IMG/VR virus record: IMGVR_UViG_2974638963_000001
Coordinates: 54,538-118,537 of that record
Reading direction: 5' to 3' (one strand)
DNA length: 64,000 bases
Source of the DNA: a virus
Taxonomy: Duplodnaviria; Caudoviricetes
Shown here: piece after piece, positions 1,820 to 64,000 of the stretch
Numbering within the stretch: the first letter of the stretch is position 1
How the letters are laid out: each line of letters starts with the position of its first letter
The notes under the pieces: generated by a model
Database searches by the model: none
The model's input: only the letters and a program-made list of their open reading frames with translations
What the model was told of the DNA's origin: nothing
Program-made: the position numbers and the translations under genes

Positions 1820-1825
1820 ATATTC

Positions 1826-2400: not shown

Positions 2401-2438
2401 GGATAATTGTAACCTTTTAACTATAGGAGTAACTCTAC

Positions 2439-5451: not shown

Positions 5452-5476
5452 TTAATAGCTAAATTTGATTTATAAT
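5448..5476 (+). promoter_or_regulatory. sigma70-type promoter
   Basis: TTGATT-17-TATAAT. Confidence 0.75.
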
Positions 5477-5508
5477 AGTTTCATAAATTTGGAAAAGAGG
5501 AATTAGAT

Positions 5509-6482: not shown

Positions 6483-6490
6483 AAATTCAC

Positions 6491-6519
6491 TTGCTTAGTA
6501 TTAGCAAAATTGTTATAAT
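6491..6519 (+). promoter_or_regulatory. sigma70-type promoter
   Basis: TTGCTT-17-TATAAT. Confidence 0.85.
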
Positions 6520-6558
6520 ATTTATATAAATTAATCAACAACAAAAGGAAATAAATTT

Positions 6559-6957
6559 ATGTCAGAACTAGATAAAGTTGCACTTGCCGATCGTTACGTA
6601 GAAGTCATTTCTGCTTACCCAGAAGACGAGCGTCCATCAATTACAACTGAAGTTGTTAAGCAAGTAGCAGAAGAATTTGGTATCCCTGCCAACTCAGCAC
6701 GTCTGCATATCAGTCGTGACCCACGTGGCGTTTATATTAAGAAAGATTCTGCCAAGAAATCAACATCTGCTGATGGTGAAAAGAAAACTGGTGGAACTCG
6801 CACATCTAAAGCCGCAGCACAAGCTGAGCTAAAAGCAGCTCTGATGGATGCAGGTGCACCAGAAGATAAAGTTGCCGAAGGCGAAGAAATCATCGAGAAA
6901 ATGACAGGTAAAGCTGCTCTGTTCTTAGCTGAATTAATTCGTTCAATCACTAAGTAA
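6559..6957 (+). CDS. D3: T5 D3-like DNA-binding protein
   Basis: Size, GVYIKK / GGTRTSKA / KMTGKAA motifs, synteny. Confidence 0.75.
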   Translation: MSELDKVALADRYVEVISAYPEDERPSITTEVVKQVAEEFGIPANSARLHISRDPRGVYIKKDSAKKSTSADGEKKTGGTRTSKAAAQAELKAALMDAGAPEDKVAEGEEIIEKMTGKAALFLAELIRSITK

Positions 6958-6969
6958 TAAGGAGCTGTT

Positions 6970-7299
6970 ATGACTAAGCGTTTTAGTGCAAACTTAAGTA
7001 CACCTGTTAAAAAGGTCGAAGTTATTGCAGCGTGTGACGAGTATGGTGAAGTGTTTATTCACTATCGCAAACAATCACGTAAGCCTGGTGAACCTTGGTC
7101 AACACAACTCCAAGGCACTATGGATTTCTCAGATAAGTATCTAGCTAAACGTTTTGAACAAGAACAACCAGCACCAGCAGGTGAAGGTGAAATCTTAGTG
7201 TTTAGCAGAACCAACGATCGCTTCCGCTATCTGCCAGTGGATACAATCTTTAAGATTGAGCATCTTGGCACAGTAGTTAACAAGGCTCGTGTCCTCTAA
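6970..7299 (+). CDS. Conserved T5-like hypothetical protein
   Basis: SD AGGAG, synteny. Confidence 0.7.
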   Translation: MTKRFSANLSTPVKKVEVIAACDEYGEVFIHYRKQSRKPGEPWSTQLQGTMDFSDKYLAKRFEQEQPAPAGEGEILVFSRTNDRFRYLPVDTIFKIEHLGTVVNKARVL

Positions 7300-7633
7300 T
7301 ATAGTTGAAGACGAAGGAATTGTTCGTCAGGAAAACGAAATGTATCCTGACGAATGCTCTGTTCCTTTGTGGGTTAAAAATGGGGAAGAAGTCCATTTCA
7401 CAATCTCCGAATTTCGAGGCAACCTATATATGGGTATACGTCTATGGCTCCAAGATGCCACTGACGAGAGTTGGTTCCCAACACGTGCTGGATTTTCTAT
7501 CCCTTTTAACATCGACACATCTGCTAGATTATTCAAGGCACTTGCTCGAACACTGAGTAAGGCAGAAGTCCTTGATGAAGTCATACAGCATACACAAAAC
7601 TGCGACACGCTTTCCGCGTTAAATAAATTATAA
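7289..7633 (+). CDS. PC4/p15-like ssDNA-binding protein
   Basis: TISEFRGNLYMGIR...WFPTRAGFSI matches the PC4-fold signature. Confidence 0.75.
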   Translation: MSSNIVEDEGIVRQENEMYPDECSVPLWVKNGEEVHFTISEFRGNLYMGIRLWLQDATDESWFPTRAGFSIPFNIDTSARLFKALARTLSKAEVLDEVIQHTQNCDTLSALNKL

Positions 7634-7660
7634 CCGTGCTTTTCAGTGCGGTTTTTATTT
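7632..7660 (+). terminator. Rho-independent terminator
   Basis: ACCGTGC-loop-GTGCGGT followed by T tract. Confidence 0.6.
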
Positions 7661-7662
7661 AC

Positions 7663-7691
7663 TTGCATTTTGCTTAAATTTTTGATATAAT
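7663..7691 (+). promoter_or_regulatory. sigma70-type promoter
   Basis: TTGCAT-17-TATAAT. Confidence 0.85.
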
Positions 7692-7731
7692 ATTTATATT
7701 GAATAGGTAATATATCAAAGGGGATTAATAA

Positions 7732-9173
<1,442 letters not shown>

Positions 9174-9211
9174 TTGATTGGGGTGTTTCCACCTCGATTT
9201 TCAAACTCTAC

Positions 9212-9240
9212 TTGACGTCGCGACAAATTATATGTATAAT
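9212..9240 (+). promoter_or_regulatory. sigma70-type promoter (first of two between ligA and ligB)
   Basis: TTGACG-17-TATAAT. Confidence 0.85.
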
Positions 9241-9307
9241 AGTTATACTGATTTGGGGATGAGGTGTCATGGCTGATAAGCCTGACGGAAATGAGTAAAA
9301 AATTCAT

Positions 9308-10112
<805 letters not shown>

Positions 10113-10118
10113 ATAACT

Positions 10119-10907
10119 ATGAGTACTATCAAATTAGCGTGGAACGAAGAAACTACTAATGCATTACGTGCGAAAGCTGAATCATTCGGTGGAGATGTAA
10201 TCACTCAAGAACAAGTTGCCCAAATCGCTATTGAGCTTGGTAATGAATTCTCTGATGAAAAAGCAACTCGTGCTGCAACTGCTCGTTCAGTAGGTTCTAA
10301 ACTGCGTAAAGAAGGTTTTGCTGTTCAACGTGCTGATGAAGTAGAAAAAGCTTCTGCATGGTCTGAAGATGAAACTGCTGAATTAGAAGCGTTCCTGAAA
10401 GCTTACGAGGGTGAGAAAACTTATGCTGAAATTGCTGCGGCGGTATGTGGTGGTAAATTCACACGTGCTCAGGTTCAAGGTAAAGTTCTGCATCTTGAAA
10501 TGACTGACAAAGTTAAGTTAACTCCGAAAGCTGCTGCTGTTCGTAAGTTTAGCCCTGAAGAAGAAAACAAGATCGTAAACTTGGTTGAAGCCGATGCATT
10601 CTTAGAGGATATCGCAGATGCATTAGATCGTACTTCTCGCCAGATTCATGGTAAATGCTTAAGTTTACTGCGTGAAAACCGTATTGCTAAATTACCAGAA
10701 CAAAAAGTTCATAAAGAATCTGCTCGTGCTGATGCATTAGCTGGCTTAGACGTAGCGTCTATGACTATCGCAGAAATCGCTGAAGCGACTGGTAAAAACG
10801 AAAAAGGCGTTAAATCAATGCTGACTCGTCGTGGTGTAGACTGTAAAGACTACAAAGGTGCTGCAAAACGCGCTAAATTAGACGAAAAAGCTGCTAAAGC
10901 TGAGTAA
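10119..10907 (+). CDS. D5: D5 DNA-binding transcription regulator
   Basis: Repeated W/F-S-x-E-E helix-turn-helix units, synteny. Confidence 0.85.
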   Translation: MSTIKLAWNEETTNALRAKAESFGGDVITQEQVAQIAIELGNEFSDEKATRAATARSVGSKLRKEGFAVQRADEVEKASAWSEDETAELEAFLKAYEGEKTYAEIAAAVCGGKFTRAQVQGKVLHLEMTDKVKLTPKAAAVRKFSPEEENKIVNLVEADAFLEDIADALDRTSRQIHGKCLSLLRENRIAKLPEQKVHKESARADALAGLDVASMTIAEIAEATGKNEKGVKSMLTRRGVDCKDYKGAAKRAKLDEKAAKAE

Positions 10908-53523: not shown

Positions 53524-53601
53524 GGTTACGTGTGGGTGTGTGCAATAGGGGTGGGGGCTTGGGCTAGTCTCCGAACCGCCCCCTATTGTATCACGGTTGC
53601 T

Positions 53602-53841
53602 TTAGTTTGTCAACGGTTGCATACTCAAAAGATTTGTAAAGTTTTGTAAGATAATTCTCAAAGCTAGGTCTTTACTATTGGGGCTACCATCTGCCAAAGC
53701 ACTTGATGCTATATCTGTAATGGCATCAGCCGCTACCCGATTAATAACTAAGTAACCTTTAGCATTTAATTCTGCTACTAATTGATTAAGTTGTTCTTGG
53801 CTCATTTCTTTGTTAGGGCTTAATTCGATAACGTTTGACAT
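53602..53841 (-). CDS. Pre-early hypothetical protein
   Basis: SD GAGG before ATG 53841. Confidence 0.65.
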   Translation of the reverse strand: MSNVIELSPNKEMSQEQLNQLVAELNAKGYLVINRVAADAITDIASSALADGSPNSKDLALRIILQNFTNLLSMQPLTN

Positions 53842-53937
53842 AATGACCTCACACAATTTAAGAATATTGATATTAGCTGGTTAACGTCTAACTAAGTAAC
53901 TAACTAGGGCTAACCAACTAATAGAGATTATATCAAA

Positions 53938-54654
53938 CTAGGCAGAAATAGCAACCAGTTTATTAAACTTACTGCTTAAATAGTCTCTTTCTTCCTGAGT
54001 ATAACTACACCATGCCGTTTCGATATGTTCCGCTAATGCTTCTGGGTCGTGCAGTTCTTCCATCACTTGATCAATGAATTGTTCACCAGCCATGCGATAC
54101 CCAACGTTTAACACGTCATTAACAAGCGTAGCATCTACAACTTGAAAGCCCATTTCACGAGCAACAGATAACACGCCTTGATGATCATCGTATACAGTGA
54201 TAACAGCGTTTGGATACATAGCTTGTAAGATCTCAAAGTATTTGCGTTTGTATTCAGCATCACGGCTGTAATAAACGTCTTTGATATCTTCAAGGGCAAA
54301 ATAACGGGCTAAGGTAGTTCTACTCATGATACTGGCGGCTTGCGGCTTATTGGTTATTAATCCTTGTTTGCGTAGGTAGTAATAATCGGATTTGTACATT
54401 GTTCTGGCTGTTACTATAATATTATGAGTATCACCTTTGTTAATATTCTCTTTCATGACAGCCGCTAGAGGTAACAAGGTATCAGCTTGTACTAGCTCAT
54501 GAGTACAAGCGTTTTGAATATATCCAGTTAAATCTAGGTTGCCAGTAGCTTCATCTAGGTATGGTCTAACACGATGAAAGCTATTTATTACAGTGCCGTC
54601 AAGGTCAAAGATATTAAGAAACTTGATATCATTAAATACTCGTGTTTGTTGCAT
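53938..54654 (-). CDS. dmp: Deoxynucleoside-5'-monophosphatase (HAD family)
   Basis: IFDLDGT, TAR, YDD motifs; position at the start of the T5 FST region. Confidence 0.9.
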   Translation of the reverse strand: MQQTRVFNDIKFLNIFDLDGTVINSFHRVRPYLDEATGNLDLTGYIQNACTHELVQADTLLPLAAVMKENINKGDTHNIIVTARTMYKSDYYYLRKQGLITNKPQAASIMSRTTLARYFALEDIKDVYYSRDAEYKRKYFEILQAMYPNAVITVYDDHQGVLSVAREMGFQVVDATLVNDVLNVGYRMAGEQFIDQVMEELHDPEALAEHIETAWCSYTQEERDYLSSKFNKLVAISA

Positions 54655-54739
54655 GGTTGTTACCTCTCGCATTTAAGCGGTTTATTTTGGAGTTGTAAGT
54701 ATAAAGAAAGCCCCTGAATATATCAAGGGCTTAACAGTG

Positions 54740-55204
54740 TTATTCTTCAGTGAACAAAGCAGGCTGAACAGGATTAATAAAAGTTACTTTAATTTTGTAA
54801 GGGCTTTCGCTTCTAGCATTAATAGGTGATACTAGCACTTGCCAGCCAGCTTCTACAAAGTCCGCTAGGTCTGAGAATAGAAAATCGCTCTCTGTCATTA
54901 ACACAATAACTTCGGTTACATCTACCTTGCTTGTATCAATATCAATAAAGGAGTAATAATCCTCTAATGATTTTGCAACGTTTTCTATATGTTGGGTAGG
55001 CAAGCCACCCGTTACACCTTCCGCAATATCGCCAAAGATGCGAGGTAAAGCCGACTCGATAGCAGTCGCAACGCTTGCCGCTTCTTGGTCGTTGTTGATC
55101 AAGCCTTTACCATAACGAATAATTGAGCCGTCAACAATGTTAACATTCTCAATAGCCCCGTTGTCAAAAGTTTTGCCGTTTGAGTATACAGTGATCATTT
55201 TCAT
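54740..55204 (-). CDS. Pre-early hypothetical protein
   Basis: Between dmp and A1, SD-like GAGAG. Confidence 0.7.
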   Translation of the reverse strand: MKMITVYSNGKTFDNGAIENVNIVDGSIIRYGKGLINNDQEAASVATAIESALPRIFGDIAEGVTGGLPTQHIENVAKSLEDYYSFIDIDTSKVDVTEVIVLMTESDFLFSDLADFVEAGWQVLVSPINARSESPYKIKVTFINPVQPALFTEE

Positions 55205-55340
55205 GGTTATTCTCTCTTATAGGTTAGCCCCTATTTATTTAGGGGCTTTAAGGTTTATTTGTTTTTAGTTAACAAGATATAACAAGTTGTTAACAACGTG
55301 CCAGCGCAGCCAGCTAGAAATAGAGGGGCTAAATCAATCA

Positions 55341-57104
55341 TTATGCGCGGTATTTCCCGTCTGTGATACGCACTAATTGACGCTGACCGTTGTTATAGGT
55401 AATCAAGTGCGTTTGAGTCCAGCTAGAAGCCCCGATATTATAGCCCATATCTAATGAGCCAGCAACGCCAGCAGTGTAACATAAGCCGTTAACGCTTGCA
55501 CTATGAGTGTGACCAGTGTTTAAGCGTCCTAACTTCGCAAACTGTTTAGGATTCCCCCGTGAGCCATTAGCCCCAACATGACCATGACAGCCCATTTCTA
55601 CGCCAGCGACCTTGAAAGATTCATCAACAACTAGGAAACGAATCTGATTAGCATTTTCTAACTTAGCTATCTTTTTCAAGCCCACTTCTAGGGCATTCCA
55701 GCCGCTTGCGGATTTATGTTCCGCAATATGGCGATATTTATCAAGGTTCATCTCATGATAAAGAATAGCATTAGCAGGATCTAGCCCTATATTAACATCC
55801 CATGCTTTGAGCCAGTTGGCTAGAGCTAAATCATGATTGGACTCAACCACAATGATTTCACTGAATGGGCGCATGATATCGCGGAAAATGTTAGCCGTAT
55901 CAATGAGATCTTGTTTAACGCTTTCTTGCCCTAAGTAGTAACGCTCCGCAATAAAATCATAATCACGTCTATTGTGATGATTTCGGCTTGTAAAGTCGTG
56001 GCTATCATGACAGATAGTAAACTTAGGTTTTAACAAGTCAATCATCGACGGGTAGCCATGCAAGCCAGCACCCCATGAACAAGCCGCTACAACATGATCA
56101 ATCTTTTCTGCATGAAGATCACCGAACTGTAAAGCAGAAACATGATTTTCAGCTCTAAACACTTGATCACTTGTTACATAAGTATCAAGATCATAAAACG
56201 AGCCATCATCATTCATGCACTGTAAATGGCGTATAAATGGCGTGTCATTATCGTCGAACTCAACTAAGATTGCACCATAGCAATGCAATGATTCTGCTTT
56301 CTGACCAGCTAGGCGCTGAATATAATTTCGATGTGTGACCGTCCCCGTTGTAGTTAACTCTCTAACTAGCTCACCTTTAAGAGCAGGGATATTAAACATT
56401 TGATACTTGGCAGCAGGTACAACCGCATGATGATTGCCTATAATGCTTTCAATGCCTGTTAATGGGTTAATAGCAGTAGGGGAAATGCATAAAGCACCTA
56501 AGAAAGATACTTTCTTACTTTCGCCTAGAAACACGTTTTCCTCAACAAAATATGGGGTTAATTCTGGCGCATACCACAATGAATCATCTTGCGCGGTCGG
56601 ATTCGCAAAGCCTTTCTTGTTATATGCAAACTTAGAAATGATTAATTCAGCTCCTAAATACTCTGCATACGTTTCTAAGGATTTCAAGAAAGGCACGTTA
56701 ACAGAAGTATTATTTTGCGCGGTTGTCAAAATAAATGCTTTACCTGATTTAACTTGCCATTTTGATTGAGCAGGTTTTAGAGAGCCACCATATACAGGCA
56801 AATCAGGGTTATCAGCTTTACGGGCTTTAGCCTTTGTTATTGGCTTGTTCTCGTCTAGCCATACTCTAAGCGCAGCCGTGAATTCTGGTTTAATAGCTTG
56901 CTCACCGTCCTCATTGTCATACGCTAGATTTTCCGCTATAACATCGACTAAAGTAGACAGCGCAAACGCTTCGTTTGCCGTTTTATCTTTTACGGATTCT
57001 AGGCGTTTTCCGTAGTAATTAACACCTTTAGCGCATTCTAGCAGGTCAGCCGCCAGATTTTTATCTGCTAATAGGTCTGAAATAGTTTTTAAAATGGGAT
57101 TCAT
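55341..57104 (-). CDS. A1: A1 protein (host DNA degradation / second-step transfer; metallophosphoesterase-like)
   Basis: TTAQNNT, GDLH, SNHD, HGHVGANGSRG, GHTHS, SSW motifs. Confidence 0.9.
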   Translation of the reverse strand: MNPILKTISDLLADKNLAADLLECAKGVNYYGKRLESVKDKTANEAFALSTLVDVIAENLAYDNEDGEQAIKPEFTAALRVWLDENKPITKAKARKADNPDLPVYGGSLKPAQSKWQVKSGKAFILTTAQNNTSVNVPFLKSLETYAEYLGAELIISKFAYNKKGFANPTAQDDSLWYAPELTPYFVEENVFLGESKKVSFLGALCISPTAINPLTGIESIIGNHHAVVPAAKYQMFNIPALKGELVRELTTTGTVTHRNYIQRLAGQKAESLHCYGAILVEFDDNDTPFIRHLQCMNDDGSFYDLDTYVTSDQVFRAENHVSALQFGDLHAEKIDHVVAACSWGAGLHGYPSMIDLLKPKFTICHDSHDFTSRNHHNRRDYDFIAERYYLGQESVKQDLIDTANIFRDIMRPFSEIIVVESNHDLALANWLKAWDVNIGLDPANAILYHEMNLDKYRHIAEHKSASGWNALEVGLKKIAKLENANQIRFLVVDESFKVAGVEMGCHGHVGANGSRGNPKQFAKLGRLNTGHTHSASVNGLCYTAGVAGSLDMGYNIGASSWTQTHLITYNNGQRQLVRITDGKYRA

Positions 57105-57179
57105 TTATATAGCTCCTAATTAAAGGGTTTTAGTGGTAACGAACTAGCCACCTCCGAAAAGGTGACTAGGGCGGATCAC

Positions 57180-57644
57180 TTATAGGCGGTCAATGCCATT
57201 TTCTTCCATAATGCCCTGTAATACATCATCAGGGCATACCTTTTTAACAATCATAATGATTGTATCAAGGTTGGCTTTTTCAAGACTAGCCCAATCATCT
57301 TTTTCTTGGTCGTTGTCGGACATATCACGCTGAAGGGCACGAATCAGAGTGATTTTTTGTAATTTCTTACCGCCGCCAACTGGCTGCTTTACTTCAAGGG
57401 CACGATAAATTTTGTTACCGTTTTCATCTTTAGAAGATGATAACTTAGTACGGACAGCCGTAGCCGTGTATGTTTCACCATCACCGCTAATTTGTTCACC
57501 GATGGATGCTAGATTATCGACAGCGTTTGCCGATGCAATTTCTTCGTCGGTCGGTTCAGCAGGGTTAACAAATGCCGCTAAATATAAGTTGATAGCTTTT
57601 GCGGTTACTTCTTCATTCCAGCGTTTTTTAGATGGAGTAGACAT
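57180..57644 (-). CDS. A2: A2-like DNA-binding protein
   Basis: WNEEVT...AVRTKLSS...VGGG...K...SLEKA pattern, position upstream of A1. Confidence 0.78.
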   Translation of the reverse strand: MSTPSKKRWNEEVTAKAINLYLAAFVNPAEPTDEEIASANAVDNLASIGEQISGDGETYTATAVRTKLSSSKDENGNKIYRALEVKQPVGGGKKLQKITLIRALQRDMSDNDQEKDDWASLEKANLDTIIMIVKKVCPDDVLQGIMEENGIDRL

Positions 57645-57842
57645 AATTTAATACCTCATTTTTCATGGTTTAAGTTTAAGTTATACACTTCTCATTAGTG
57701 TATTATGAATAGAGCCTGTCTGTCAAGCCCTATTAATTACACTATCAAGAGGAGTCTAAGCAATGGCAACTGCTTAATGAAGCCCTGAATTTCAAGGCTT
57801 GTTTAAGCATCCAATCTTAGCTATTTCACCGTGTTTTCCGTA

Positions 57843-57855
57843 TTGTTAAAGAGCG
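57843..57855 (-). promoter_or_regulatory. boxA antitermination element
   Basis: CGCTCTTTAACAA on - strand, ~20 nt after the inferred TSS. Confidence 0.8.
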
Positions 57856-57881
57856 TGGTTAGTTGCCTAACCTTTGAATCT

Positions 57882-57910
57882 ATCTTATATCAGCCGCCTG
57901 ATTTTGTCAA
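57882..57910 (-). promoter_or_regulatory. Pre-early promoter
   Basis: TTGACA-17-TAAGAT. Confidence 0.85.
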
Positions 57911-57914
57911 GCGT

Positions 57915-58214
57915 TTATTTCCAAATACTTCTATTAATGCTTTGTTGCGATTCTATCGTTTCTACAACCTGAATCACTATGCCTAGATTATGCCATGCTT
58001 CGCTTGCCTTGTCAAACAGTTTTTTATCACCGTCGAAATACTGATCTAGCGTAGCCTTGTAAGCGTTGCGAATTATCTTAGCTTCTTTCCTTAGCCTTGT
58101 CAAGTCGATTCTATGATCTATTCTCTCGGTCAATGCTTCGTTTGCCGTAATGCCCTGAGAAGCTACTAGAGTGCATAATACTTGATTAAAAGATTGTTTT
58201 GCCATATTTGCCAT
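57915..58214 (-). CDS. Pre-early hypothetical protein
   Basis: Own promoter, SD GAGG. Confidence 0.75.
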   Translation of the reverse strand: MANMAKQSFNQVLCTLVASQGITANEALTERIDHRIDLTRLRKEAKIIRNAYKATLDQYFDGDKKLFDKASEAWHNLGIVIQVVETIESQQSINRSIWK

Positions 58215-58252
58215 TCCTCAATAGTTAGGTTAGGCGGCTGATATAAGTTAGA

Positions 58253-58265
58253 TTGTTAAAGAGCG
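58253..58265 (-). promoter_or_regulatory. boxA antitermination element
   Basis: CGCTCTTTAACAA on - strand. Confidence 0.8.
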
Positions 58266-58281
58266 TGTTTCTATGGTTAGT

Positions 58282-58310
58282 ATCTTAAAGCCTAGTATTG
58301 TTTTTGTCAA
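58282..58310 (-). promoter_or_regulatory. Pre-early promoter
   Basis: TTGACA-17-TAAGAT. Confidence 0.85.
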
Positions 58311-58652
58311 CTATTTATTTGTGTACTGCATAACATTTTCTATATATACGATTCTAACCGCTATATATAAGCAACGATAGAAGCGCAAGGCTAATTGATC
58401 TTTTGCTATCCCGTAGTGAATAGGCATTTTTGACGCTTCGGGAAATTTTTCTTCTAGATCTGATAATAGGCGAGTTAATGAAGCCCATTTAACAGAACCA
58501 TTATCAAGCCCTTTTTCAAGATCTAACATGATGCAAGTTGCTACCTTATCGATATCATTTCTAACCACTATAGGAAATGATAATAATTCTAGTATTAACT
58601 GTAATGTATCATTGCTTAAAAAGGTTGCTTTAATCTTTCTTGCTTTTGCCAT
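58311..58652 (-). CDS. Pre-early hypothetical protein
   Basis: SD GGAG. Confidence 0.75.
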   Translation of the reverse strand: MAKARKIKATFLSNDTLQLILELLSFPIVVRNDIDKVATCIMLDLEKGLDNGSVKWASLTRLLSDLEEKFPEASKMPIHYGIAKDQLALRFYRCLYIAVRIVYIENVMQYTNK

Positions 58653-58700
58653 TTGTATTTACTCCGATAGTATATACTAGGCTTTAAGATACTAACCGTA

Positions 58701-58713
58701 TTTTTAAAGAGCG
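58701..58713 (-). promoter_or_regulatory. boxA antitermination element
   Basis: CGCTCTTTAAAAA on - strand. Confidence 0.75.
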
Positions 58714-58800
58714 TTACTACTAGGAACTTATCCAGTTATTCATATGCCACTGGCGGCTACTTCGTGGGCTTTCCTTGCCTTGTTCCTTACTATGTGACTA

Positions 58801-58828
58801 AGTATACATGAGCCAATTTAAAAAGCAA
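58801..58828 (-). promoter_or_regulatory. Pre-early promoter (leftward)
   Basis: TTGCTT-16-TATACT with A/T-rich UP element. Confidence 0.65.
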
Positions 58829-58942
58829 CTATTATTTTTAATTATTTTGCTGGCGGTAGTGTATAAGGAAACGGGCGCGTGATTATACACAAGTTAACTA
58901 GGAAGTAAAGAAAATTACTTATTAAAAAGATACAAAAAGAGC

Positions 58943-58970
58943 TTGCATTTAACAACCGTGGTGCTAATAT
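58943..58970 (+). promoter_or_regulatory. Pre-early promoter (rightward)
   Basis: TTGCAT-16-TAATAT with A-tract UP element. Confidence 0.6.
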
Positions 58971-59006
58971 ATATCTCATCGAAAGGCAAACAAAGGAGGT
59001 AGCAAA

Positions 59007-60086
59007 ATGACCGTCAAGGCACTTAAAAGCAATCGAGCGATAGCTCGAAGCGGTCACATTAACACAATTGAGCAATTAAGACAATCAGACGTTGGGGGTT
59101 TTCCATCAACTAGTATTGTTAGACGAGCTACGCCTAGGCAGCTTAATAATATAATGCATACGGCAGGGAGTACAGAACAATCTGTATTAACTCCTTTAAG
59201 TAGTCAAAGTGCGTATAAACATATTAAAAATTTGCTTGATTTACTTGTTTCCGGTGTGGTAGAATACATTACAATCTACTCGCCAGATGGTACGTTAATA
59301 AGTGATCACTATTATTCTACACGTCGATCTATGGAGGAGGATTGCGATACCGCCTACTCTAAGGCTAAGGACGATTTACTAATCTTAGCTAAATCTAGTA
59401 ATGGCATCATGTTAACATGGGGTAGCTATGACGCTAGAAAGTCGGCAGGTGTGGGCGTCAAGGTAGAGTGTGAGGTTTTCAATCAAAATGATAGCCTATT
59501 TGACGTTATCTATGATATATTTAACCATGCTAACTATAACGATTTAATTGACGTGGATTTATCCGATAAGCTACGCAATCAGGGCGTTATTATACAGGGT
59601 CATACAGTTAGCGAGAACAAGTATACACAAGTAATTATAGAGGAATTTTTAAAATCATCTATAAGCGAAGCTGGCGAAACAGCAGAGCAACCAATCGAAA
59701 CCAAAGAGGAAACTAGCAAAATGAAAACAACATTCAGCACTATCTTAGCAGAAAACAAAGCAGCAGCAATCAACGCTGGCGAAATGGAAACGGGGCGTTT
59801 AGTCGTTAATCGTATTGTGGCAGTCGTTAAAAAGCGTGCTCCGCTAATGGTTAAAGGGTACATTGATACACCAGTGGGGCGCATTGCCGTAGCAAATTTA
59901 TTTGCCGCTTTAGTGCGAGAATATCTACCTGATAACGCACTGGCAGGACGTGCGGCAGACGGGGCGGTGAAGTCGGCAGCTTATGAAGTATTGCGTGATA
60001 TTGATATACCAGCAATTCTAGAAGAAGTATTGGCAGGATTCAAAGACGCTGAGCCAGCAGCAGCAAGCGAAAAGATCGCACTGTAA
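59007..60086 (+). CDS. Pre-early hypothetical protein (conserved-looking C-terminus, PLMVKGYIDTPVGR)
   Basis: SD AAGGAGGT; possible internal start at 59721 (GAGG...ATG). Confidence 0.8.
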   Translation: MTVKALKSNRAIARSGHINTIEQLRQSDVGGFPSTSIVRRATPRQLNNIMHTAGSTEQSVLTPLSSQSAYKHIKNLLDLLVSGVVEYITIYSPDGTLISDHYYSTRRSMEEDCDTAYSKAKDDLLILAKSSNGIMLTWGSYDARKSAGVGVKVECEVFNQNDSLFDVIYDIFNHANYNDLIDVDLSDKLRNQGVIIQGHTVSENKYTQVIIEEFLKSSISEAGETAEQPIETKEETSKMKTTFSTILAENKAAAINAGEMETGRLVVNRIVAVVKKRAPLMVKGYIDTPVGRIAVANLFAALVREYLPDNALAGRAADGAVKSAAYEVLRDIDIPAILEEVLAGFKDAEPAAASEKIAL

Positions 60087-60134
60087 TTTGATGGTAGGGG
60101 CTAGAACTTAGCCCCTAATTAAAGAGGTGATACA

Positions 60135-60536
60135 ATGGCAAAAGTTATAAATTTTGAGTGTGTACACGTCTTAAATATCCGTACAACGGGGCAAGCGTTA
60201 ACATGGGAGAGCGCACTAGAACAGATTAGTAAGTGTACTAAATGCCAATATGTTACTGTTACATTAGGTCGCTTGGTTTTCCGTATTGACTGGCTAATAC
60301 TGGCTAGCATTTACGAATCTTTACAATTAAATATGCCGTTTAGTGTTGCGGTAGGGGGCGAAGTCTGGTATATTGAACAATATCAGGACGTGGAACAATT
60401 GTTTTATAACGTTTCTGTAAGCCGTCTTTTTATGAAAGAGGGAGTAGCTTATTATGTGGGCGATATTATCGGGCTATGTGGAAAAGTTACTAAGGGTCAA
60501 GGGATTACGAATCATAGTACTGTTAATTTTAGCTGA
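60135..60536 (+). CDS. Pre-early hypothetical protein
   Basis: SD GAGGTG. Confidence 0.7.
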   Translation: MAKVINFECVHVLNIRTTGQALTWESALEQISKCTKCQYVTVTLGRLVFRIDWLILASIYESLQLNMPFSVAVGGEVWYIEQYQDVEQLFYNVSVSRLFMKEGVAYYVGDIIGLCGKVTKGQGITNHSTVNFS

Positions 60537-60719
60537 ACTATTATATCGTGTTTTCTTTGAATCTAAGTATTACTTTTATACGCTCCAATGACTATATTTA
60601 AAGTGTTACTAGTTAGCGGCTGTATATGTATAGTTTGGCATTTACTAGCCCATTGGCTAGATAATAGACGATTAAAACGTATGGGTAAAGGATGATATCT
60701 AACCTATAGGGGGGTTAAA

Positions 60720-60836
60720 ATGTGGGATCTATTTCTATCCCCCAATGGGGATTTAAACTGGCTTTCTTTGTTGCTGGCGGCTGTATGCACTATAGCTATT
60801 CTAGTGATCTTTGATGATAACGAGCCGTTACTATAG
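60720..60836 (+). CDS. Single-TM microprotein (38 aa)
   Basis: MWDLFLSPNGDLNWLSLLLAAVCTIAILVIFDD...; SD AGGGGG. Confidence 0.55.
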   Translation: MWDLFLSPNGDLNWLSLLLAAVCTIAILVIFDDNEPLL

Positions 60837-60845
60837 GGGCTTTAT

Positions 60846-60932
60846 ATGAAGTGTGACAAGGTAGGCGTATATTGCAACATTCTAGCGGCTGGCATCTTTG
60901 GGTTAATGATTTTATCATGTATCTTAAAGTAA
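60846..60932 (+). CDS. Single-TM microprotein (28 aa)
   Basis: MKCDKVGVYCNILAAGIFGLMILSCILK; SD AGGGG. Confidence 0.5.
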   Translation: MKCDKVGVYCNILAAGIFGLMILSCILK

Positions 60933-61011
60933 TTCTTTATATGTTGGCTATTTTATGCCCTGTGTTCGGGGCTTCAAGCGGCTTAATGTGGTTAATGACT
61001 ATATTAGCAGG

Positions 61012-61416
61012 ATAGCACAAAAAGCTAAAACAATTTAATCTAGGTAGGGTAATATAGCCCTACTAACACAAAACGAGGGTTTAAACATGGAAAAATTAAA
61101 ACTGGCATTCCCTACTGCATTTTCTGAGCTAGTTGAATGCTTTGGGGAAAAGCAAGCTGAAATTGAGCTTGAGAAGTTAGTCGAGCGTCAAAAGATTAAC
61201 CCTAAGTTAGATTTAGAAGATAAACCGCTTCTAGCTGCTTTTGTGTGGGAAGAAACGGAACAGGGTCATGAATACTGGCGAGAGCTTCTATACTCAAAAG
61301 ATTTATTGCCACCACTGTTTTATTTTCTGTCCGACTCTAGTCATACAGACGACGAATAGCACAAAAAGCTAAAACAAATTAATCTAGGTAGGGTAATATA
61401 GCCCTACCAACACAAA
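61012..61416 (+). repeat. 61-bp direct repeat (61012-61072 and 61356-61416), each upstream of a paralogous gene
   Basis: 59/61 identical, contains a GTAGGG...CCCTAC hairpin. Confidence 0.92.
61087..61359 (+). CDS. Hypothetical protein (AFxW...QGxEYW motif)
   Basis: SD GAGG. Confidence 0.75.
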   Translation: MEKLKLAFPTAFSELVECFGEKQAEIELEKLVERQKINPKLDLEDKPLLAAFVWEETEQGHEYWRELLYSKDLLPPLFYFLSDSSHTDDE

Positions 61417-61445
61417 TAAACCAATGATTTGAGAGGTAGTAAAAA

Positions 61446-61874
61446 ATGACCATTATCCAACGTATGCCTAAATTTGTTTCTACTATGGTAGCAGTATTTG
61501 ACGGGGACGCAGACCTTGCAGCGCAGATCATTAACGAGTTAGAAGCGGCAGGGGTAGAATTCGCAGAAAAAGATTGTGTTAGCTTGGGCGCGGCTTTTGA
61601 TTGGCAGCAATCCCCGCAAGGTCGGGAGTATTGGGATATGATGGACGATAAAGCGGAGCAGGTACTAGGCGAAGATTACCGCTTGCCAGACTTTCAAGAG
61701 TGCGGTTGTCCAGCTTGTCAGATGACCGTTAAATTAGGCGGCACAATTGATGCAATCATGGTTGTAGGATCGCTGGGCTTGCTAGTAGAGGCTATTCCTG
61801 AGCCAATGATCAAAGATATGGTAACTCGTGCTAAGGAAGATCGCCTTAAAGAAAGAGCAGGGCGCACGCACTAA
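61446..61874 (+). CDS. Hypothetical protein (AFxW...QGxEYW motif, CGCPAC)
   Basis: SD GAGGT. Confidence 0.75.
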   Translation: MTIIQRMPKFVSTMVAVFDGDADLAAQIINELEAAGVEFAEKDCVSLGAAFDWQQSPQGREYWDMMDDKAEQVLGEDYRLPDFQECGCPACQMTVKLGGTIDAIMVVGSLGLLVEAIPEPMIKDMVTRAKEDRLKERAGRTH

Positions 61875-61925
61875 CACTAATAAAAGCCCCCTGAACCAAT
61901 AGGGGGCGTTTAAGGAGAAGTTATA

Positions 61926-62036
61926 ATGATTATTTTTACTTTGTGGGGCGTCATTCAGTGGGCTACTTTAGTCTATATATTGGTTACTCCGTATATTTTA
62001 GAAGCGGTTGTAACTCAACAATTAGCAGGCTTATAA
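61926..62036 (+). CDS. Single-TM microprotein (36 aa)
   Basis: MIIFTLWGVIQWATLVYILVTPY...; SD AGGAG. Confidence 0.55.
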   Translation: MIIFTLWGVIQWATLVYILVTPYILEAVVTQQLAGL

Positions 62037-62117
62037 TATTTGACTAGCTTATGCTCTTATGATACATTAAGAGCATAGACGAGTTAAATTAAACCGTAAA
62101 TAATCGAGGATATCAAA

Positions 62118-62387
62118 ATGAAATTAACTAAATTGGTGTTAGCTACTTTGGTGTTAGGCTTGGCAGGTTGCGCGACTACTGGCGAAAAACCAGCTATAAC
62201 CCCTAAAACGTGTATAGGCATCATGGAGGTTTCAACCATGAATAAAACCTACTCGGTGGACTTGAAAGCCGTCAAAACTAACAAGTATGGCGAAACGTTC
62301 TATCAGGTTAAAGGCTACAATCCATTTGTAGGCGGGGCAGGTTGGGTTCGTGAAGATGCTTTTCAGTCTGTAATGTGTGATGAATGA
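62118..62387 (+). CDS. Lipoprotein, Cor-like superinfection-exclusion candidate
   Basis: Signal peptide with lipobox LAGC; second Cys pair and GWV motif. Confidence 0.65.
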   Translation: MKLTKLVLATLVLGLAGCATTGEKPAITPKTCIGIMEVSTMNKTYSVDLKAVKTNKYGETFYQVKGYNPFVGGAGWVREDAFQSVMCDE

Positions 62388-62580
62388 GATCATCTATATT
62401 AAACGCTTTATATCCCTATACTGGCACTTTATAGGGGTAGTGGAAGCGATGCACGAAAAGGCAGTTAGTGAGAATCACCAATACGGGATTGACCTAACTA
62501 GACGTAAACTAGACCGCCTTAAAATTGATCTGCTAGGCTGGCAAGATAAGCTGATGCATGAGATAAAAAATACAAAATAG
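62377..62580 (+). CDS. Hypothetical protein
   Basis: Overlapping ORF in operon. Confidence 0.55.
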   Translation: MMNEIIYIKRFISLYWHFIGVVEAMHEKAVSENHQYGIDLTRRKLDRLKIDLLGWQDKLMHEIKNTK

Positions 62581-62584
62581 TCAT

Positions 62585-62613
62585 TGACAATATAGCCCTT
62601 TCGATGTATATTA
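62585..62613 (+). promoter_or_regulatory. Promoter
   Basis: TTGACA-17-TATATT. Confidence 0.7.
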
Positions 62614-62643
62614 TATGCATACACCAAACGAGAGGGTTACAAA

Positions 62644-62874
62644 ATGATTATTCGTATTTCTGGCATTAACATCAACAACGATTTAGATATGTTTGACGCA
62701 CTGGCAAGCGCAGGCTATGCAGGGGCACTAGATCGCCTAGATGATATAACAGCAGAGTTAGACGTGAGAGATTATGCCTTTAGACAACGGGCAGGGATCG
62801 AGGAAGCGCAAGTGATGCACCTATTGCGAGAACTTACCGAGATAGACGGGTTAAAAATATCTATTGGTAACTAA
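62644..62874 (+). CDS. Hypothetical protein
   Basis: SD GAGGG. Confidence 0.7.
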   Translation: MIIRISGININNDLDMFDALASAGYAGALDRLDDITAELDVRDYAFRQRAGIEEAQVMHLLRELTEIDGLKISIGN

Positions 62875-62884
62875 CAACCCCAAC

Positions 62885-62911
62885 AGCCTTGCAGAAATGC
62901 AGGGCTTTTTT
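62885..62911 (+). terminator. Terminator ending rightward pre-early transcription
   Basis: AGCCTTGCA-GAAA-TGCAGGGCT followed by T tract. Confidence 0.9.
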
Positions 62912-63024
62912 GTACCCCCAATAAACAAGCCCCTACCTTACTACCCCATCAACAATAAAACCTCTCACATTGGCTTACACAGAGCGTCATAATAGACAAC
63001 CGCATATTGTTCTAAGTCTATAAG

Positions 63025-63040
63025 CTGTATATCTATACAG
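63025..63040. promoter_or_regulatory. LexA (SOS) box
   Basis: CTGTATATCTATACAG, 15/16 to CTGTATATATATACAG. Confidence 0.75.
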
Positions 63041-63077
63041 GGTCAAAACTGTGGATAACTTCTGTGGATAAGTCGAT

Positions 63078-63092
63078 CTGAATCGTTTCAGC
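63078..63092. promoter_or_regulatory. Cra (FruR) operator-like site
   Basis: CTGAATCGTTTCAGC vs GCTGAAWCGNTTCA. Confidence 0.65.
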
Positions 63093-63100
63093 AAGCCCCC

Positions 63101-63117
63101 AACTGGTCAGACCTGTG
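63101..63117. promoter_or_regulatory. FadR operator-like site
   Basis: AACTGGTCAGACCTGTG vs AACTGGTCNGACCAGTT (2 mismatches). Confidence 0.65.
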
Positions 63118-63131
63118 GGTAACTTCTAAAC

Positions 63132-63156
63132 GCAAGTGAGAAGCATTCGCATTCAT
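63132..63156. promoter_or_regulatory. Fur box-like site
   Basis: GCAAGTGAGAAGCATTCGC (12/19) plus an overlapping hexamer-shifted copy. Confidence 0.5.
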
Positions 63157-63158
63157 TT

Positions 63159-63230
63159 AGCCGTCTAAACGTCTGGACGTCTAAACGTCTAGATGGCTGG
63201 ACGTCTAGATGGCTGGACGTCTAGACGTCC
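63159..63230. repeat. Nine tandem 8-bp Met boxes (MetJ operator array)
   Basis: AGCCGTCT AAACGTCT GGACGTCT AAACGTCT AGATGGCT GGACGTCT AGATGGCT GGACGTCT AGACGTCC vs AGACGTCT. Confidence 0.8.
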
Positions 63231-63357
63231 CTCTGCGCTTATGTGCGTAATCGGGATCGCTTTTTCAAAACGTTACATGCGAGCTAGGCTACATGTGAAT
63301 TTCTGAAAATGCAAATTCCAAAATTCTCGAAAAAATTTTTCCATTCGTAAAATATTC

Positions 63358-63855
63358 TCTCCTGCTCCCTGGCTATCTAAAATAAACTCAAAAATAAAAC
63401 CAACCACCAGCAATTCTCCAACCTTAAAAAATAAAACGTCTTCAGAAGATTCAACGAGTCTCTTTTATGGGACTCGATTTTATTTTTGTCTTTGAGTAAT
63501 GCTATCACCTTAGTTTACAAATCAGTTTTGAGAAGCTGTTTTATTTTTGGTGCTTAAAGTTTGCTGGTGGATTTGCCGGGGAGCAGGGGAGGAGAAAACC
63601 AAAAGATCTACTTGACAACCAGTTTTGCAGAAACCAAATAACGAACCTTGCACACTAGGATTTTATAAACTAGGAATAAATATGCTCTCACGAAATAGGC
63701 GTGAGCAATTCTCCAGTCCCCCGGCTGACTTGTTTTACTGGAATGTCTTCTAGGATGCAAAATATTTAGTGGGATTATTTCTTAGCGTGGATGATCTTGA
63801 GGAAGTCTTGAGAGGATGTGGGTAGATATTAGAGGATGTGCCGGGGAACAGGAGA
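63358..63855. repeat. Long imperfect inverted repeats, injection-stop-signal-like region
   Basis: 63358-63373/63575-63590, 63404-63413/63561-63570, 63710-63725/63840-63855; no ORFs; position after pre-early genes as in T5 iss. Confidence 0.7.
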
Positions 63856-64000
63856 GGAAATCTTAAGGGGCCCAGGAAAATCGTTGTTTGTAGAAAAACG
63901 CACTTAAAACAACCCCCCTGGTAACTAACCGCCTTATATCGAAAAATTATGACCTTAAAGGTGGGTAAAGGGCTTGAAAAATAAAAAATTCATGAGGCCC

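What the first reader, a model, noticed from the sequence alone, without database searches (positions are those of the whole stretch)
63020..63235. Cassette of back-to-back host transcription-factor operators in the first-injected DNA (candidate multi-regulon decoy or ejection-control device)
Seen: about 210 bp of gene-free DNA after the last pre-early terminator carries, almost without spacer, a near-consensus LexA box (63025-63040), two perfect DnaA boxes (63050, 63063) and a third with one mismatch (63114), a Cra palindrome (63078-63092), a FadR palindrome (63101-63117), a Fur-like box (63132-63156) and nine Met boxes (63159-63230). No ORF follows that they could regulate. Established: these match enterobacterial operator consensuses; T5-like phages inject the terminal ~8% of the genome first and pause near a non-coding injection stop signal, where DnaA boxes have been noted. 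Inference: either (a) a DNA sponge that titrates host regulators of SOS/recombination, carbon flux, fatty acids, iron and methionine/SAM, amplified by terminal redundancy and replication, or (b) a landing pad where abundant host proteins clamp, ratchet or sense host state during the two-step ejection. I know of no description of such a multi-TF cassette, but cannot search.
Basis: partly seen in the sequence, partly recalled or inferred. Interest (0 to 1): 0.92.

Follow-up and report, generated by a model that had tools for sequence, protein, structure and literature searches.

The report
Host-operator cassette at phage injection stop
A 210-bp gene-free stretch at the 8% point of a T5-like Providencia phage genome, where such phages pause DNA injection, consists mostly of top-grade binding sites for host proteins (LexA, DnaA, Cra, MetJ, perhaps FadR), giving concrete host factors to test for a pause that is still unexplained.

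Summary
The window ends in the right copy of an exact 10,461-bp terminal repeat of a Priunavirus (T5-like). An identical copy lies at 8.0-8.2% of the genome in the left, first-injected repeat.

Within one 108-kb genome unit, these all fall in the same 210 bp:
- the only LexA-type box
- the only Cra-consensus match
- the best FadR-type match
- all MetJ two-box matches
- two of the five perfect DnaA boxes

The Fur-like box is not above background here.

Calibration on E. coli K-12 shows the LexA, Cra and MetJ sites match consensus as well as or better than native operators. The Cra palindrome is identical to natural fruB operators.

Eleven Demerecviridae from at least nine genera share one layout: LexA-type palindrome, oriented DnaA boxes, a Fur-type or MetJ-type array, then a nick motif. 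The Cra site is specific to phages of Providencia and Proteus. The FadR-like site occurs only in Priunavirus.

This is the T5 injection-stop region. Papers I could search describe only its DnaA boxes.

Host proteins probably coat it on entry. A role in the pause is inferred, not shown. The decoy (sponge) reading is unlikely.

This scan had already noted LexA, Fur and MetJ look-alikes on other DNA. The Cra site is new to it.

The parts
53540..64000 (.). Right copy of the exact 10,461-bp direct terminal repeat. The identical left, first-injected copy is G000 1-10461.
   Evidence: exact end identity of 10,461 bp.
62885..62910 (+). Intrinsic-terminator-like hairpin plus T-run that closes the rightward pre-early operon.
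   Evidence: Identical in PSTCR5.
63025..63040 (.). LexA-type palindrome CTGTATATCTATACAG, the homologue of T5 'palindrome D'.
   Evidence: It is the only site in the genome unit within 3 mismatches of the 16-mer consensus. The same element sits at the same place in 11 of 11 Demerecviridae. In E. coli K-12 only 7 sites are within 2 mismatches; I checked two, which lie upstream of umuD and dinD.
63050..63058 (-). Perfect DnaA box (TTATCCACA on the - strand).
63063..63071 (-). Perfect DnaA box, paired with the first (4-bp gap).
63078..63092 (.). Cra/FruR-type operator CTGAATCGTTTCAGC, in the roughly 51-bp spacer between the DnaA boxes.
   Evidence: It is the only match to RSTGAAWCSNTHHW in the genome unit. 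The 16-mer with a leading G is the fruR-fruBKA intergenic operator in Vibrionaceae. The site is identical in the Proteus phages Stubb and PM135 although the flanks are unrelated. PSTCR5 has TGAATCGATTCA. K-12 has no exact CTGAAWCGWTTCAG; of its six 1-mismatch sites, two lie upstream of fruB and one upstream of pfkA.
63101..63117 (+). FadR-like site AACTGGTCAGACCTGTG, overlapping the third DnaA box.
   Evidence: Best match in the genome unit (1 mismatch). The core CTGGTCNGACNTNT is shared with a K-12 hit at the coordinate I recall for fadL, and hits at the fabA and fabB coordinates differ by 1 mismatch (genes assigned from memory, not checked). It is found only in this phage and PSTCR5. Specificity is modest.
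63114..63122 (-). DnaA box with one mismatch (TTACCCACA). It is perfect in PSTCR5.
63132..63156 (.). Degenerate remnant of the Fur-box-like repeat unit (shares CATTCGCATTCA with the T5 DRC repeats). Not a significant Fur match here.
63159..63230 (.). Nine tandem MetJ-type boxes, 1-2 mismatches each to AGACGTCT.
   Evidence: It is longer and closer to consensus than the K-12 metJ/B, metF, metN, metC and ybdL operators. Homologous arrays sit at the same slot in Vibrio and Aeromonas T5-like phages.
63233..63238 (+). CTGCGC, matching the sequence at the T5 7.9% major nick. It is followed by a DRD-like repeat (TGTGCGTAATCG...).
   Evidence: By sequence homology to the annotated T5 nick 1 and direct repeat D. 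The nick itself was not tested.

Best explanation
This is the injection-stop-signal region (the equivalent of T5 'Repeat Region 3') of a Priunavirus. It lies at the point where a T5-type phage halts DNA transfer after about 8% of the genome.

Its repeats and palindromes are operator-grade sites for host DNA-binding proteins. There is a family-wide core: a LexA-type palindrome, same-strand DnaA boxes with a fixed spacer of five or six helical turns, an array slot, and a nick motif. Lineage-specific modules are added to it: a Cra operator and a FadR-like site inside the DnaA spacer, and a nine-box MetJ array where T5 carries Fur-type repeats.

Inferred mechanism: as the last roughly 200 bp of the first-step DNA emerge into the cytoplasm, pre-existing host LexA, DnaA, Cra, MetJ-SAM (and perhaps FadR) occupy them within seconds. 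They coat and bend this stretch into a compact nucleoprotein cap next to the nick. [quoted passage not shown] It does not regulate a gene and does not act as a regulon sponge.

My odds:
- Identity as the injection-stop region: about 0.9.
- Host proteins really bind several of these sites in vivo: about 0.6.
- That binding is causal for the pause or restart: about 0.2.
For: Shown:
- Position at 8.0-8.2% of a genome with a 10,461-bp terminal repeat, after the last pre-early terminator. T5 shears at 7.9%.
- Homology and shared order with the annotated T5 features palindrome D, the DnaA-box repeats, DRC, nick 1 and DRD.
- The motif classes are concentrated in the stop region in this phage, PSTCR5, T5, Stubb and VPT02. 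For example, in T5 6 of 10 Fur-type hits fall in 371 bp, P about 8e-15.
- 11 of 11 phages from at least 9 genera have the LexA-type palindrome 25-38 bp before DnaA boxes that all lie on one strand. Variation in the palindrome is confined to its central positions and one arm base.
- The sites are operator-grade. The Cra palindrome equals natural fruB operators and beats every K-12 site. The LexA box equals the best K-12 SOS box. The MetJ array beats the native operators.
- Fur-type arrays (T5, Sepoy, My1, Kpn24-P2, Stubb) and MetJ-type arrays (this phage, PSTCR5, VPT02, AhSzw-1, JSF12) occupy the same slot before the nick.
- The phage has no MetJ, LexA, Fur, LacI, GntR or DnaA DNA-binding domain.
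- There is no promoter above chance and no gene to regulate.

Inferred:
- No phage-made protein exists when this DNA arrives, so only host or virion proteins can read it.
Against: - There are no binding data of any kind.
- The whole stretch 63025-63375 is about 96% identical to PSTCR5, including parts with no recognised motif. That comparison therefore shows no selection specific to the motifs.
- The Fur-like element fails here, and the FadR core is not specific.
- In Vibrio phages and in jumbo phages the 8-bp arrays drift to AGAAGGCT / AGACGGCT / AGATGGCT units. These are poorer MetJ matches and are shared across unrelated phages, which could point to another binder or to a structural role.
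- The strand is unusually foldable (z = -4.7), so a cruciform reading is not excluded.
- Proteins bound to DNA already inside the cell do not obviously stop DNA still outside.
- I could not verify that Providencia has cra, fadR and metJ, because genomes in the tools are unnamed.
- A later check of a sister finding in this scan gave the causal reading only 8/100.
Confidence: 0.5

Rival explanations
1. The palindromes and repeats are structural DNA (cruciforms or hairpins that hinder passage) or sites for phage-encoded or virion-carried proteins. On this view their likeness to host operators is coincidental or irrelevant.
For: - The strand folds far better than shuffles (z = -4.66).
- Non-motif DNA up to 63375 is just as conserved.
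- Similar 8-bp arrays with off-consensus units occur near the record starts of the unrelated jumbo phages XbC2 and A4.
- Published views of the region invoke secondary structure.
Against: - Four or five different elements each match a different host factor at or above the quality of native operators.
- Coincidence is unlikely even allowing hundreds of candidate factors.
- The phage has no homologue of those families.
- Phage-made proteins are absent at entry.
- The Cra 15-mer is kept intact between genera while its flanks are unrelated.
Confidence: 0.2
2. The cassette is a host-protein roadblock or insulator. Tightly bound repressors behind the last pre-early terminator stop RNA polymerase, or other translocases moving rightward, from pulling the remaining DNA in prematurely or from colliding with the entry channel.
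For: - The cassette lies about 115 bp downstream of the terminator of the rightward operon.
- All DnaA boxes are on one strand in every phage examined, a polar design.
- The slot is filled by arrays of cooperative repressor sites.
- The rest is inference from the established T7 model of transcription-driven DNA entry.
Against: - A strong intrinsic terminator is already present.
- No direct evidence exists.
- From memory of the classical literature, first-step complexes are stable in chloramphenicol, which neither needs nor excludes this model.
- T5 has a second copy of the LexA/DnaA module upstream of the same operon, at 6137, where a terminal roadblock makes less sense.
Confidence: 0.12
3. 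The cassette is a multi-regulon decoy or sponge. It titrates LexA, DnaA, Cra, FadR and MetJ away from host operators and so reprogrammes the host.
For: - The sites are stronger than native operators.
- There are two copies per genome, amplified by replication.
- The DnaA-titrating datA locus is a precedent (established knowledge).
Against: - Only one copy is present during the pause, against hundreds to thousands of molecules of each factor (established estimates, from memory).
- T5-type phages degrade host DNA during the pause (paper read) and, from established T5 biology, shut off host expression. Derepression would come too late to matter.
- Which regulon is 'targeted' changes between genera at the same slot, Fur versus MetJ.
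- Cra and FadR sites are absent from most relatives.
Confidence: 0.06
4. The cassette is a replication origin, or a packaging or recombination site of the terminal repeat: DnaA boxes and iteron-like repeats next to a nick.
For: - A DnaA-box cluster, repeat arrays and a nick motif lie within 0.8 kb of the repeat's inner end.
- The jumbo-phage arrays also lie near the starts of their records.
Against: - T5 origins were mapped near the genome centre, and the replication genes are not expressed during the first step (Davison preprint).
- No AT-rich unwinding element was noted.
- This reading gives no role to the LexA, Cra and MetJ-type sites.
Confidence: 0.06

Closest known systems
Phage T5 injection stop signal / left-terminal-repeat 'Repeat Region 3' (palindrome D, IRD'-spacer-IRC' with DnaA boxes, direct repeats C and palindromes E-I, major nick 1, direct repeats D; Heusterspreute 1987, Wang 2005, Davison preprint 10.1101/866236)
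   Same: - Same position (about 8%, after the last pre-early terminator, inside the terminal repeat).
- Same order of elements.
- Same LexA-type palindrome, and same-strand DnaA boxes with a spacer of about 51 bp.
- Same CTGCGC nick motif and DRD-like repeat.
   Different: - No inverted second copy in the repeat. This corresponds to Davison's 'Type 4'.
- The spacer holds a Cra operator and a FadR-like site.
- The Fur-type DRC block is reduced to one degenerate unit and replaced by nine MetJ-type boxes.
- Published descriptions name only DnaA boxes.
Native operators of enterobacterial repressors: SOS boxes (umuD, dinD), fruB O1/O2 (Cra), met boxes (metC, metN, ybdL, metF, metJ/B), fadL/fabA (FadR)
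   Same: Same consensus sequences at equal or better match quality.
   Different: - No promoter or gene is controlled.
- Five factor classes are packed into 210 bp.
- Nine MetJ boxes, against 2-4 found by the same criterion in the K-12 operators.
E. coli datA-type DnaA-titrating locus
   Same: A gene-less cluster of DnaA boxes that acts through protein occupancy rather than promoter control (established knowledge).
   Different: - The cassette is on a phage.
- It has only three boxes, combined with sites for unrelated repressors.
- Titration is unlikely given copy number and timing.
Phages that borrow host LexA (for example GIL01; PMC4551915 listed)
   Same: A phage genome carries SOS boxes read by the host repressor.
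   Different: There LexA represses a lysogenic promoter in a temperate phage. Here the phage is virulent and no promoter was found.
8-bp MetJ-like arrays near the genome ends of jumbo phages (Asteriusvirus A4, Mimasvirus XbC2)
   Same: Long 8-bp-periodic AGAYGKCT arrays in gene-free DNA close to the start of the record. Earlier notes of this scan say the same.
   Different: - The phage families are unrelated.
- No LexA/DnaA module was seen beside them.
- The units are mostly AGACGGCT / AGATGGCT, further from the MetJ consensus.

Membership tests
T5-type injection stop signal region | Non-coding DNA inside the long terminal repeat, after the last rightward pre-early gene, at about 8% of the genome | tested here: met
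   The terminal repeat is 10,461 bp. The cassette is at G000 9486-9694, which is 8.0-8.2% of 118,537 bp. It follows a terminator, and the relative has no gene annotated there.
T5-type injection stop signal region | Palindrome D followed by oriented DnaA-box pairs separated by a fixed spacer of about 52 bp | tested here: met
   The palindrome starts 25 bp before the first box. It is 51 bp from the second to the third box, and all boxes lie on the - strand. The same geometry holds in the relatives.
T5-type injection stop signal region | Inverted second copy (IRC-spacer-IRD) elsewhere in the repeat | tested here: not met
   No inverted or direct copy was found in 53540-64000. Davison describes such single-copy 'Type 4' phages, so this does not exclude membership.
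T5-type injection stop signal region | DNA transfer actually pauses here, and there is a single-strand nick at the CTGCGC motif | not testable with these tools
   Only the sequence motif is present (63233-63238).
LexA operator (gammaproteobacterial SOS box) | CTGT-N8-ACAG with an A/T-rich centre, close to TACTGTATATATATACAGTA | tested here: met
   15/16 to the 16-mer, and unique in the genome unit. K-12 has only one site this close, 46 bp upstream of dinD.
LexA operator (gammaproteobacterial SOS box) | Overlaps a promoter that it represses | tested here: not met
   No promoter-like site overlaps it. The count in the region equals that of shuffles.
DnaA box | TTATCCACA / TTWTNCACA | tested here: met
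   Two perfect boxes and one with 1 mismatch. Counting perfect and 1-mismatch boxes, 3 lie in the 261-bp window (G000 9461-9721) against 0.08 expected.
Cra/FruR operator | Match to RSTGAAWCSNTHHW / palindrome TGAAWCGWTTCA, as at fruB | tested here: met
   Exact on the - strand, and the only such match in the genome unit. The sequence is the fruR-fruBKA intergenic site in at least 10 Vibrionaceae and relatives. The 14-mer occurs in 99 of 401 genomes of that order, against roughly 17 for the reversed control.
Cra/FruR operator | The host encodes Cra and uses this operator | not testable with these tools
FadR operator | ANCTGGTCNGACNTGTT-type 17-mer | tested here: inconclusive
   16/17, and the best match in the genome unit. 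However, the core has 6 exact K-12 matches, is not enriched over the control, and occurs only in the two Priunavirus genomes.
Fur box | Match to GATAATGATAATCATTATC or the 7-1-7 model | tested here: not met
   No hit at thresholds that 54, 6 and 0 other sites in the genome reach. Relatives do have strong Fur-type arrays at this slot.
MetJ operator | Two or more tandem 8-bp boxes close to AGACGTCT | tested here: met
   Nine boxes with 1-2 mismatches each. The two-box criterion finds only 7 sites in K-12, of which 3 lie directly upstream of metN, metC and ybdL.
Transcription-factor decoy / titration locus | Enough site copies, early enough, to change occupancy of host operators that still matter | not testable with these tools
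   Inference only: one copy is present during the pause, and host DNA is degraded early.

The most novel reading that the evidence does not exclude
The T5-type injection stop is read by the host's own repressors. LexA, DnaA and a cooperative repressor filament assemble on the last DNA to enter. The filament is Fur in T5 and MetJ here, with Cra kinking the DnaA spacer in Providencia and Proteus phages. This complex is what holds the genome at 8%, or it gates restart according to host state (SOS, iron, SAM, carbon flux), until A1/A2 dismantle it.
Probability: 0.15. Interest if true: 0.9.

Novelty: new variant of a known kind. Interest (0 to 1): 0.7.

Why it matters
Why T5-type phages stop DNA transfer at 8% and how they restart has been open since the 1960s. 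Papers from 2023-2026 still call the stop region uncharacterised apart from repeats and DnaA boxes.

Reading its 'repeats and palindromes' as operator-grade sites for named host proteins turns the question into ordinary experiments: gel shifts, ChIP on arrested complexes, host mutants, effector addition and box scrambling. The swap of Fur-type for MetJ-type arrays, and the lineage-specific insertion of a Cra operator, also suggest that phages can recruit whichever abundant host repressor is at hand as a building block for a cis-acting device. This would be a use of operators that has nothing to do with gene regulation.

Tried and rejected
- Host-genome check. I wanted to see whether Providencia or Proteus carry cra, fadR and metJ, and this Cra operator at fruB. 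'of' needs a G handle. The 401-genome order sample carries no names. The check was abandoned.
- Davison 2015 (Bacteriophage 5:e1086500): not held, so I cannot exclude that it mentions other host sites.
- Regulated promoter or ncRNA reading: the promoter-like count equals that of shuffles, and Rfam gave only sub-threshold hairpin noise on the array. Rejected.
- Phage-encoded look-alike regulators: none of six Pfam families is present, and the pre-early ORFs gave only DUF7566.
- Strict four-box MetJ pattern across IMG/VR: 13 loci. Only PSTCR5 and one Vibrio T5-like phage have heterogeneous arrays in an injection-stop context. The rest are perfect microsatellites in unrelated viruses.
- A1-based locus search in IMG/VR: it gave only 5 loci, and the distant ones lack the cassette within 9 kb. 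Uninformative.
- Motif-specific constraint from the PSTCR5 comparison: not separable, because the whole stretch 63025-63375 is conserved.
Full report
WHERE IT IS

The window is G000 54538-118537 of a 118,537-bp virus record. The query stretch occurs twice, at G000 9461-9721 and 117537-117797. The two genome ends are identical over exactly 10,461 bp. Window 53540-64000 is therefore the right terminal repeat, and an identical cassette lies in the left repeat at 8.0-8.2% of the genome.

The closest public relative is Providencia phage PSTCR5 (Priunavirus, Demerecviridae), 89% identical over this non-coding DNA. In PSTCR5 the A1 ('DNA transfer protein') and A2 genes, a rightward block of small genes and then 1.7 kb without any annotated gene lie in the same order.

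THE OBSERVATION

All the elements are at the stated coordinates:
- a LexA-type palindrome at 63025-63040
- two perfect DnaA boxes and one with a single mismatch, all on the - strand
- a Cra-type palindrome at 63078-63092
- a FadR-like 17-mer at 63101-63117
- nine 8-bp MetJ-type units at 63159-63230 (Tandem Repeats Finder: period 8, 9.0 copies)

A terminator-like hairpin at 62885-62906 precedes them.

I scanned one genome unit of 108,076 bp. The cassette holds the only site within 3 mismatches of the LexA 16-mer, the only match to the degenerate Cra consensus, the best FadR-type match, every MetJ two-box match with 3 or fewer mismatches, and two of the five perfect DnaA boxes. The chance that a motif's best genomic site lands in a given 261-bp window (G000 9461-9721, the cassette plus about 20 bp each side) is 0.0024. 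Even with 300 candidate factors, four or more such coincidences have P of about 0.006 (my calculation).

The 'Fur-like box' does not pass. It misses thresholds that 54 and 6 other sites in the genome reach.

ARE THE MATCHES OPERATOR-GRADE?

I calibrated on real genomes rather than on memory.

Cra:
- The exact 16-mer GCTGAATCGTTTCAGC was found in many bacterial genomes. In at least 10 of the 14 gammaproteobacterial hits examined, it lies between a divergent LacI-family gene and a fruB-fruK-fruA operon. That is the canonical Cra/FruR target.
- The 14-mer occurs in 99 of 401 genomes of that order, against about 17 for the reversed control.
- In E. coli K-12, CTGAAWCGWTTCAG has no exact match and six sites with one mismatch. 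Two are 21 and 88 bp upstream of fruB and one is 107 bp upstream of pfkA. The phage site is exact.

LexA:
- Only seven K-12 sites lie within two mismatches of the 16-mer.
- Those checked sit 22 bp upstream of umuD and 46 bp upstream of dinD, and only the dinD site has a single mismatch. The phage box also has one.

MetJ:
- Only seven K-12 sites match two tandem boxes with 3 or fewer mismatches.
- Three of them are directly upstream of metN, metC and ybdL.
- By one criterion the native operators have 2-4 boxes with 0-3 mismatches each. The phage has nine boxes with 1-2 mismatches each.

FadR:
- The core is shared with K-12 hits at the coordinates I recall for fadL, fabA and fabB (not checked against the annotation).
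- It has six exact K-12 matches and no enrichment over the control. That call stays tentative.

CONSERVATION

I compared the homologous regions of T5, Sepoy, My1, Slocum, Klebsiella phage Kpn24-P2, Proteus phages Stubb and PM135, Vibrio phages VPT02 and JSF12, Aeromonas phage AhSzw-1 and PSTCR5. All share one order:
1. a LexA-type palindrome
2. 25-38 bp later, DnaA boxes that all lie on the same strand
3. a spacer that puts the next DnaA box 50-52 or 61 bp on
4. an array slot
5. CTGCGC plus TGTGCRAATCCGAC-type repeats (the annotated T5 7.9% nick and direct repeat D)

The palindrome is T5's annotated 'palindrome D'. It is CTGTATAAATATACAG in T5, Sepoy and VPT02. It varies only in its central positions or by ACAG to CCAG in My1, Slocum and Kpn24-P2. 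In whole-genome scans such A/T-rich boxes occur almost only in the first-step DNA, with one or two stray sites elsewhere in three of the genomes.

The array slot holds Fur-type repeats of the form tGAGAATcATTCTCa in T5, Sepoy, My1, Kpn24-P2 and Stubb. In T5, 6 of 10 genome-wide hits fall in 371 bp, P about 8e-15. The slot holds MetJ-type arrays in this phage, PSTCR5, VPT02, AhSzw-1 (about 14-16 units) and JSF12 (about 20 weaker units). The degenerate 'Fur-like' unit here shares CATTCGCATTCA with the T5 repeats and looks like a remnant.

The Cra 15-mer is identical in this phage, Stubb and PM135 although the flanking spacer DNA is unrelated. PSTCR5 has the other consensus variant, TGAATCGATTCA. 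It is absent from the other genera. The FadR-like site is confined to the two Priunavirus genomes and sits where T5 has a variant DnaA box.

Against PSTCR5, the 115 bp between terminator and palindrome are about 35% diverged, while 63025-63375 is about 96% identical. The few changes inside the boxes fall at consensus-tolerated positions. The conservation also covers DNA with no recognised motif.

WHAT IT IS NOT

- There is no promoter above chance and no downstream gene.
- There is no Rfam family.
- There is no second copy in the repeat.
- The phage has no MetJ, LexA, Fur, LacI, GntR or DnaA DNA-binding domain. The pre-early ORFs gave only DUF7566.

LITERATURE

The Davison preprint (10.1101/866236) describes the repeats, the palindromes and eight DnaA boxes, and proposes that membrane-bound DnaA stops the DNA. 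It does not mention LexA, MetJ or FadR. Papers from 2023 and 2026 still list only repeats, palindromes and DnaA boxes and call the mechanism unknown. No paper in the library pairs T5-like phages with LexA or SOS boxes or with MetJ. Davison 2015 was not available.

EARLIER NOTES OF THIS SCAN

Other agents had already reported the LexA-type palindrome and Fur-type arrays in T5-like stop regions, and MetJ-type arrays in jumbo phages. One such finding was later given 82/100 for the observation and 8/100 for the bold causal reading. I reached the same sequence-level conclusions independently here.

MECHANISM

Shown:
- position
- homology to the T5 stop region
- operator-grade matches
- family-wide layout
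- absence of phage homologues and of a regulated gene

Inferred:
- When this DNA enters, no phage protein has yet been made. Only host or virion proteins can read it.
- LexA, DnaA, Cra, MetJ-SAM and perhaps FadR, each present in hundreds to thousands of copies, should occupy such sites within seconds. They would form a dense, bent nucleoprotein cap on the last roughly 200 bp before the nick.
- Fur-type and MetJ-type arrays replace each other at one slot, and both repressors bind cooperatively along short-repeat arrays. This suggests that a protein coat matters, not which regulon the protein belongs to.
- A LacI-family protein such as Cra kinks its operator at the central CG (established for the family). 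That fits the constant-length, reportedly bent spacer.

Whether this cap holds the DNA, insulates it from polymerases arriving from the rightward operon, or marks it for A1/A2 is open. I put a causal role in the pause at about 0.2. The sponge reading is weak for three reasons: only one copy is present during the pause, host DNA is destroyed early, and the 'target' regulon differs between genera.

A structural or phage-protein reading remains a real rival. The strand is highly foldable (z = -4.66). Off-consensus AGAYGGCT units are shared with jumbo-phage arrays. The jumbo genus concerned otherwise infects enterobacteria, so those arrays do not argue against MetJ.

VERDICT

- The object is the known T5-type injection-stop region in a Priunavirus variant.
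- Its reading as a cassette of host operators is well supported at the sequence level and is unpublished as far as I could search.
- The Cra module is new even to this scan.
- Function is inferred, not shown.

Noticed in passing
window 62911-63024 versus 63025-63375: Against PSTCR5, the 115 bp between the terminator and the LexA-type box are about 35% diverged with several indels. Everything from the box to 63375 is about 96% identical, including 140 bp beyond the nick motif that carry no recognised site.
   Followed up: partly
L005:1420-1431 (Proteus phage Stubb): The PhageTerm-predicted end of Stubb's terminal repeat falls exactly on the last base of the CTGCGC nick motif. Either the repeat ends there, or read starts at a nick misled the prediction.
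   Followed up: no
L009:640-790 (Xanthomonas phage XbC2) and L010:1440-1610 (Escherichia phage A4): Jumbo phages carry long 8-bp-periodic AGACGGCT / AGATGGCT arrays in gene-free DNA. The XbC2 array lies about 0.7 kb from the record start and the A4 array about 5.2 kb from it. The units resemble the weaker units of the T5-like arrays.
   Followed up: partly
L148 (Vibrio phage JSF12, reverse strand, about 390-530 of the non-coding stretch): An array of about 20 units of AGAAGGCT / AGACGGAT / AGAAGTCT sits at the MetJ slot. It is much further from the MetJ consensus than the array in this phage.
   Followed up: no
T5 AY587007 positions 231-234 and 6137; AhSzw-1 110,504-111,705: Extra Fur-type and LexA-type sites lie in other repeat regions of the first-step DNA. 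These include the extreme left end of the T5 repeat and the second inverted LexA/DnaA module.
   Followed up: no
PSTCR5 NC_055910 69424-69439: A second A/T-rich CTGT-N8-ACAG palindrome (CTGTTAAAATTAACAG) lies about 9.6 kb downstream, in the early region.
   Followed up: no
L131-L143 (IMG/VR): Perfect microsatellites (AAATGTCT)n, (GGATGGCT)n and (GAATGGCT)n occur in unrelated viral contigs, one with a giant-virus MAG label (L136). They satisfy a loose MetJ-box pattern but are simple repeats.
   Followed up: partly
window 59007-60086 (+): A 359-aa pre-early protein is a full-length member of DUF7566 (E 1e-103). The other nine pre-early ORFs tested have no Pfam family.
   Followed up: no
E. coli K-12 NC_000913.3 982980, 1062888, 3919873, 4497132: Four further two-box MetJ-type matches were not checked against gene context.
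   Followed up: no
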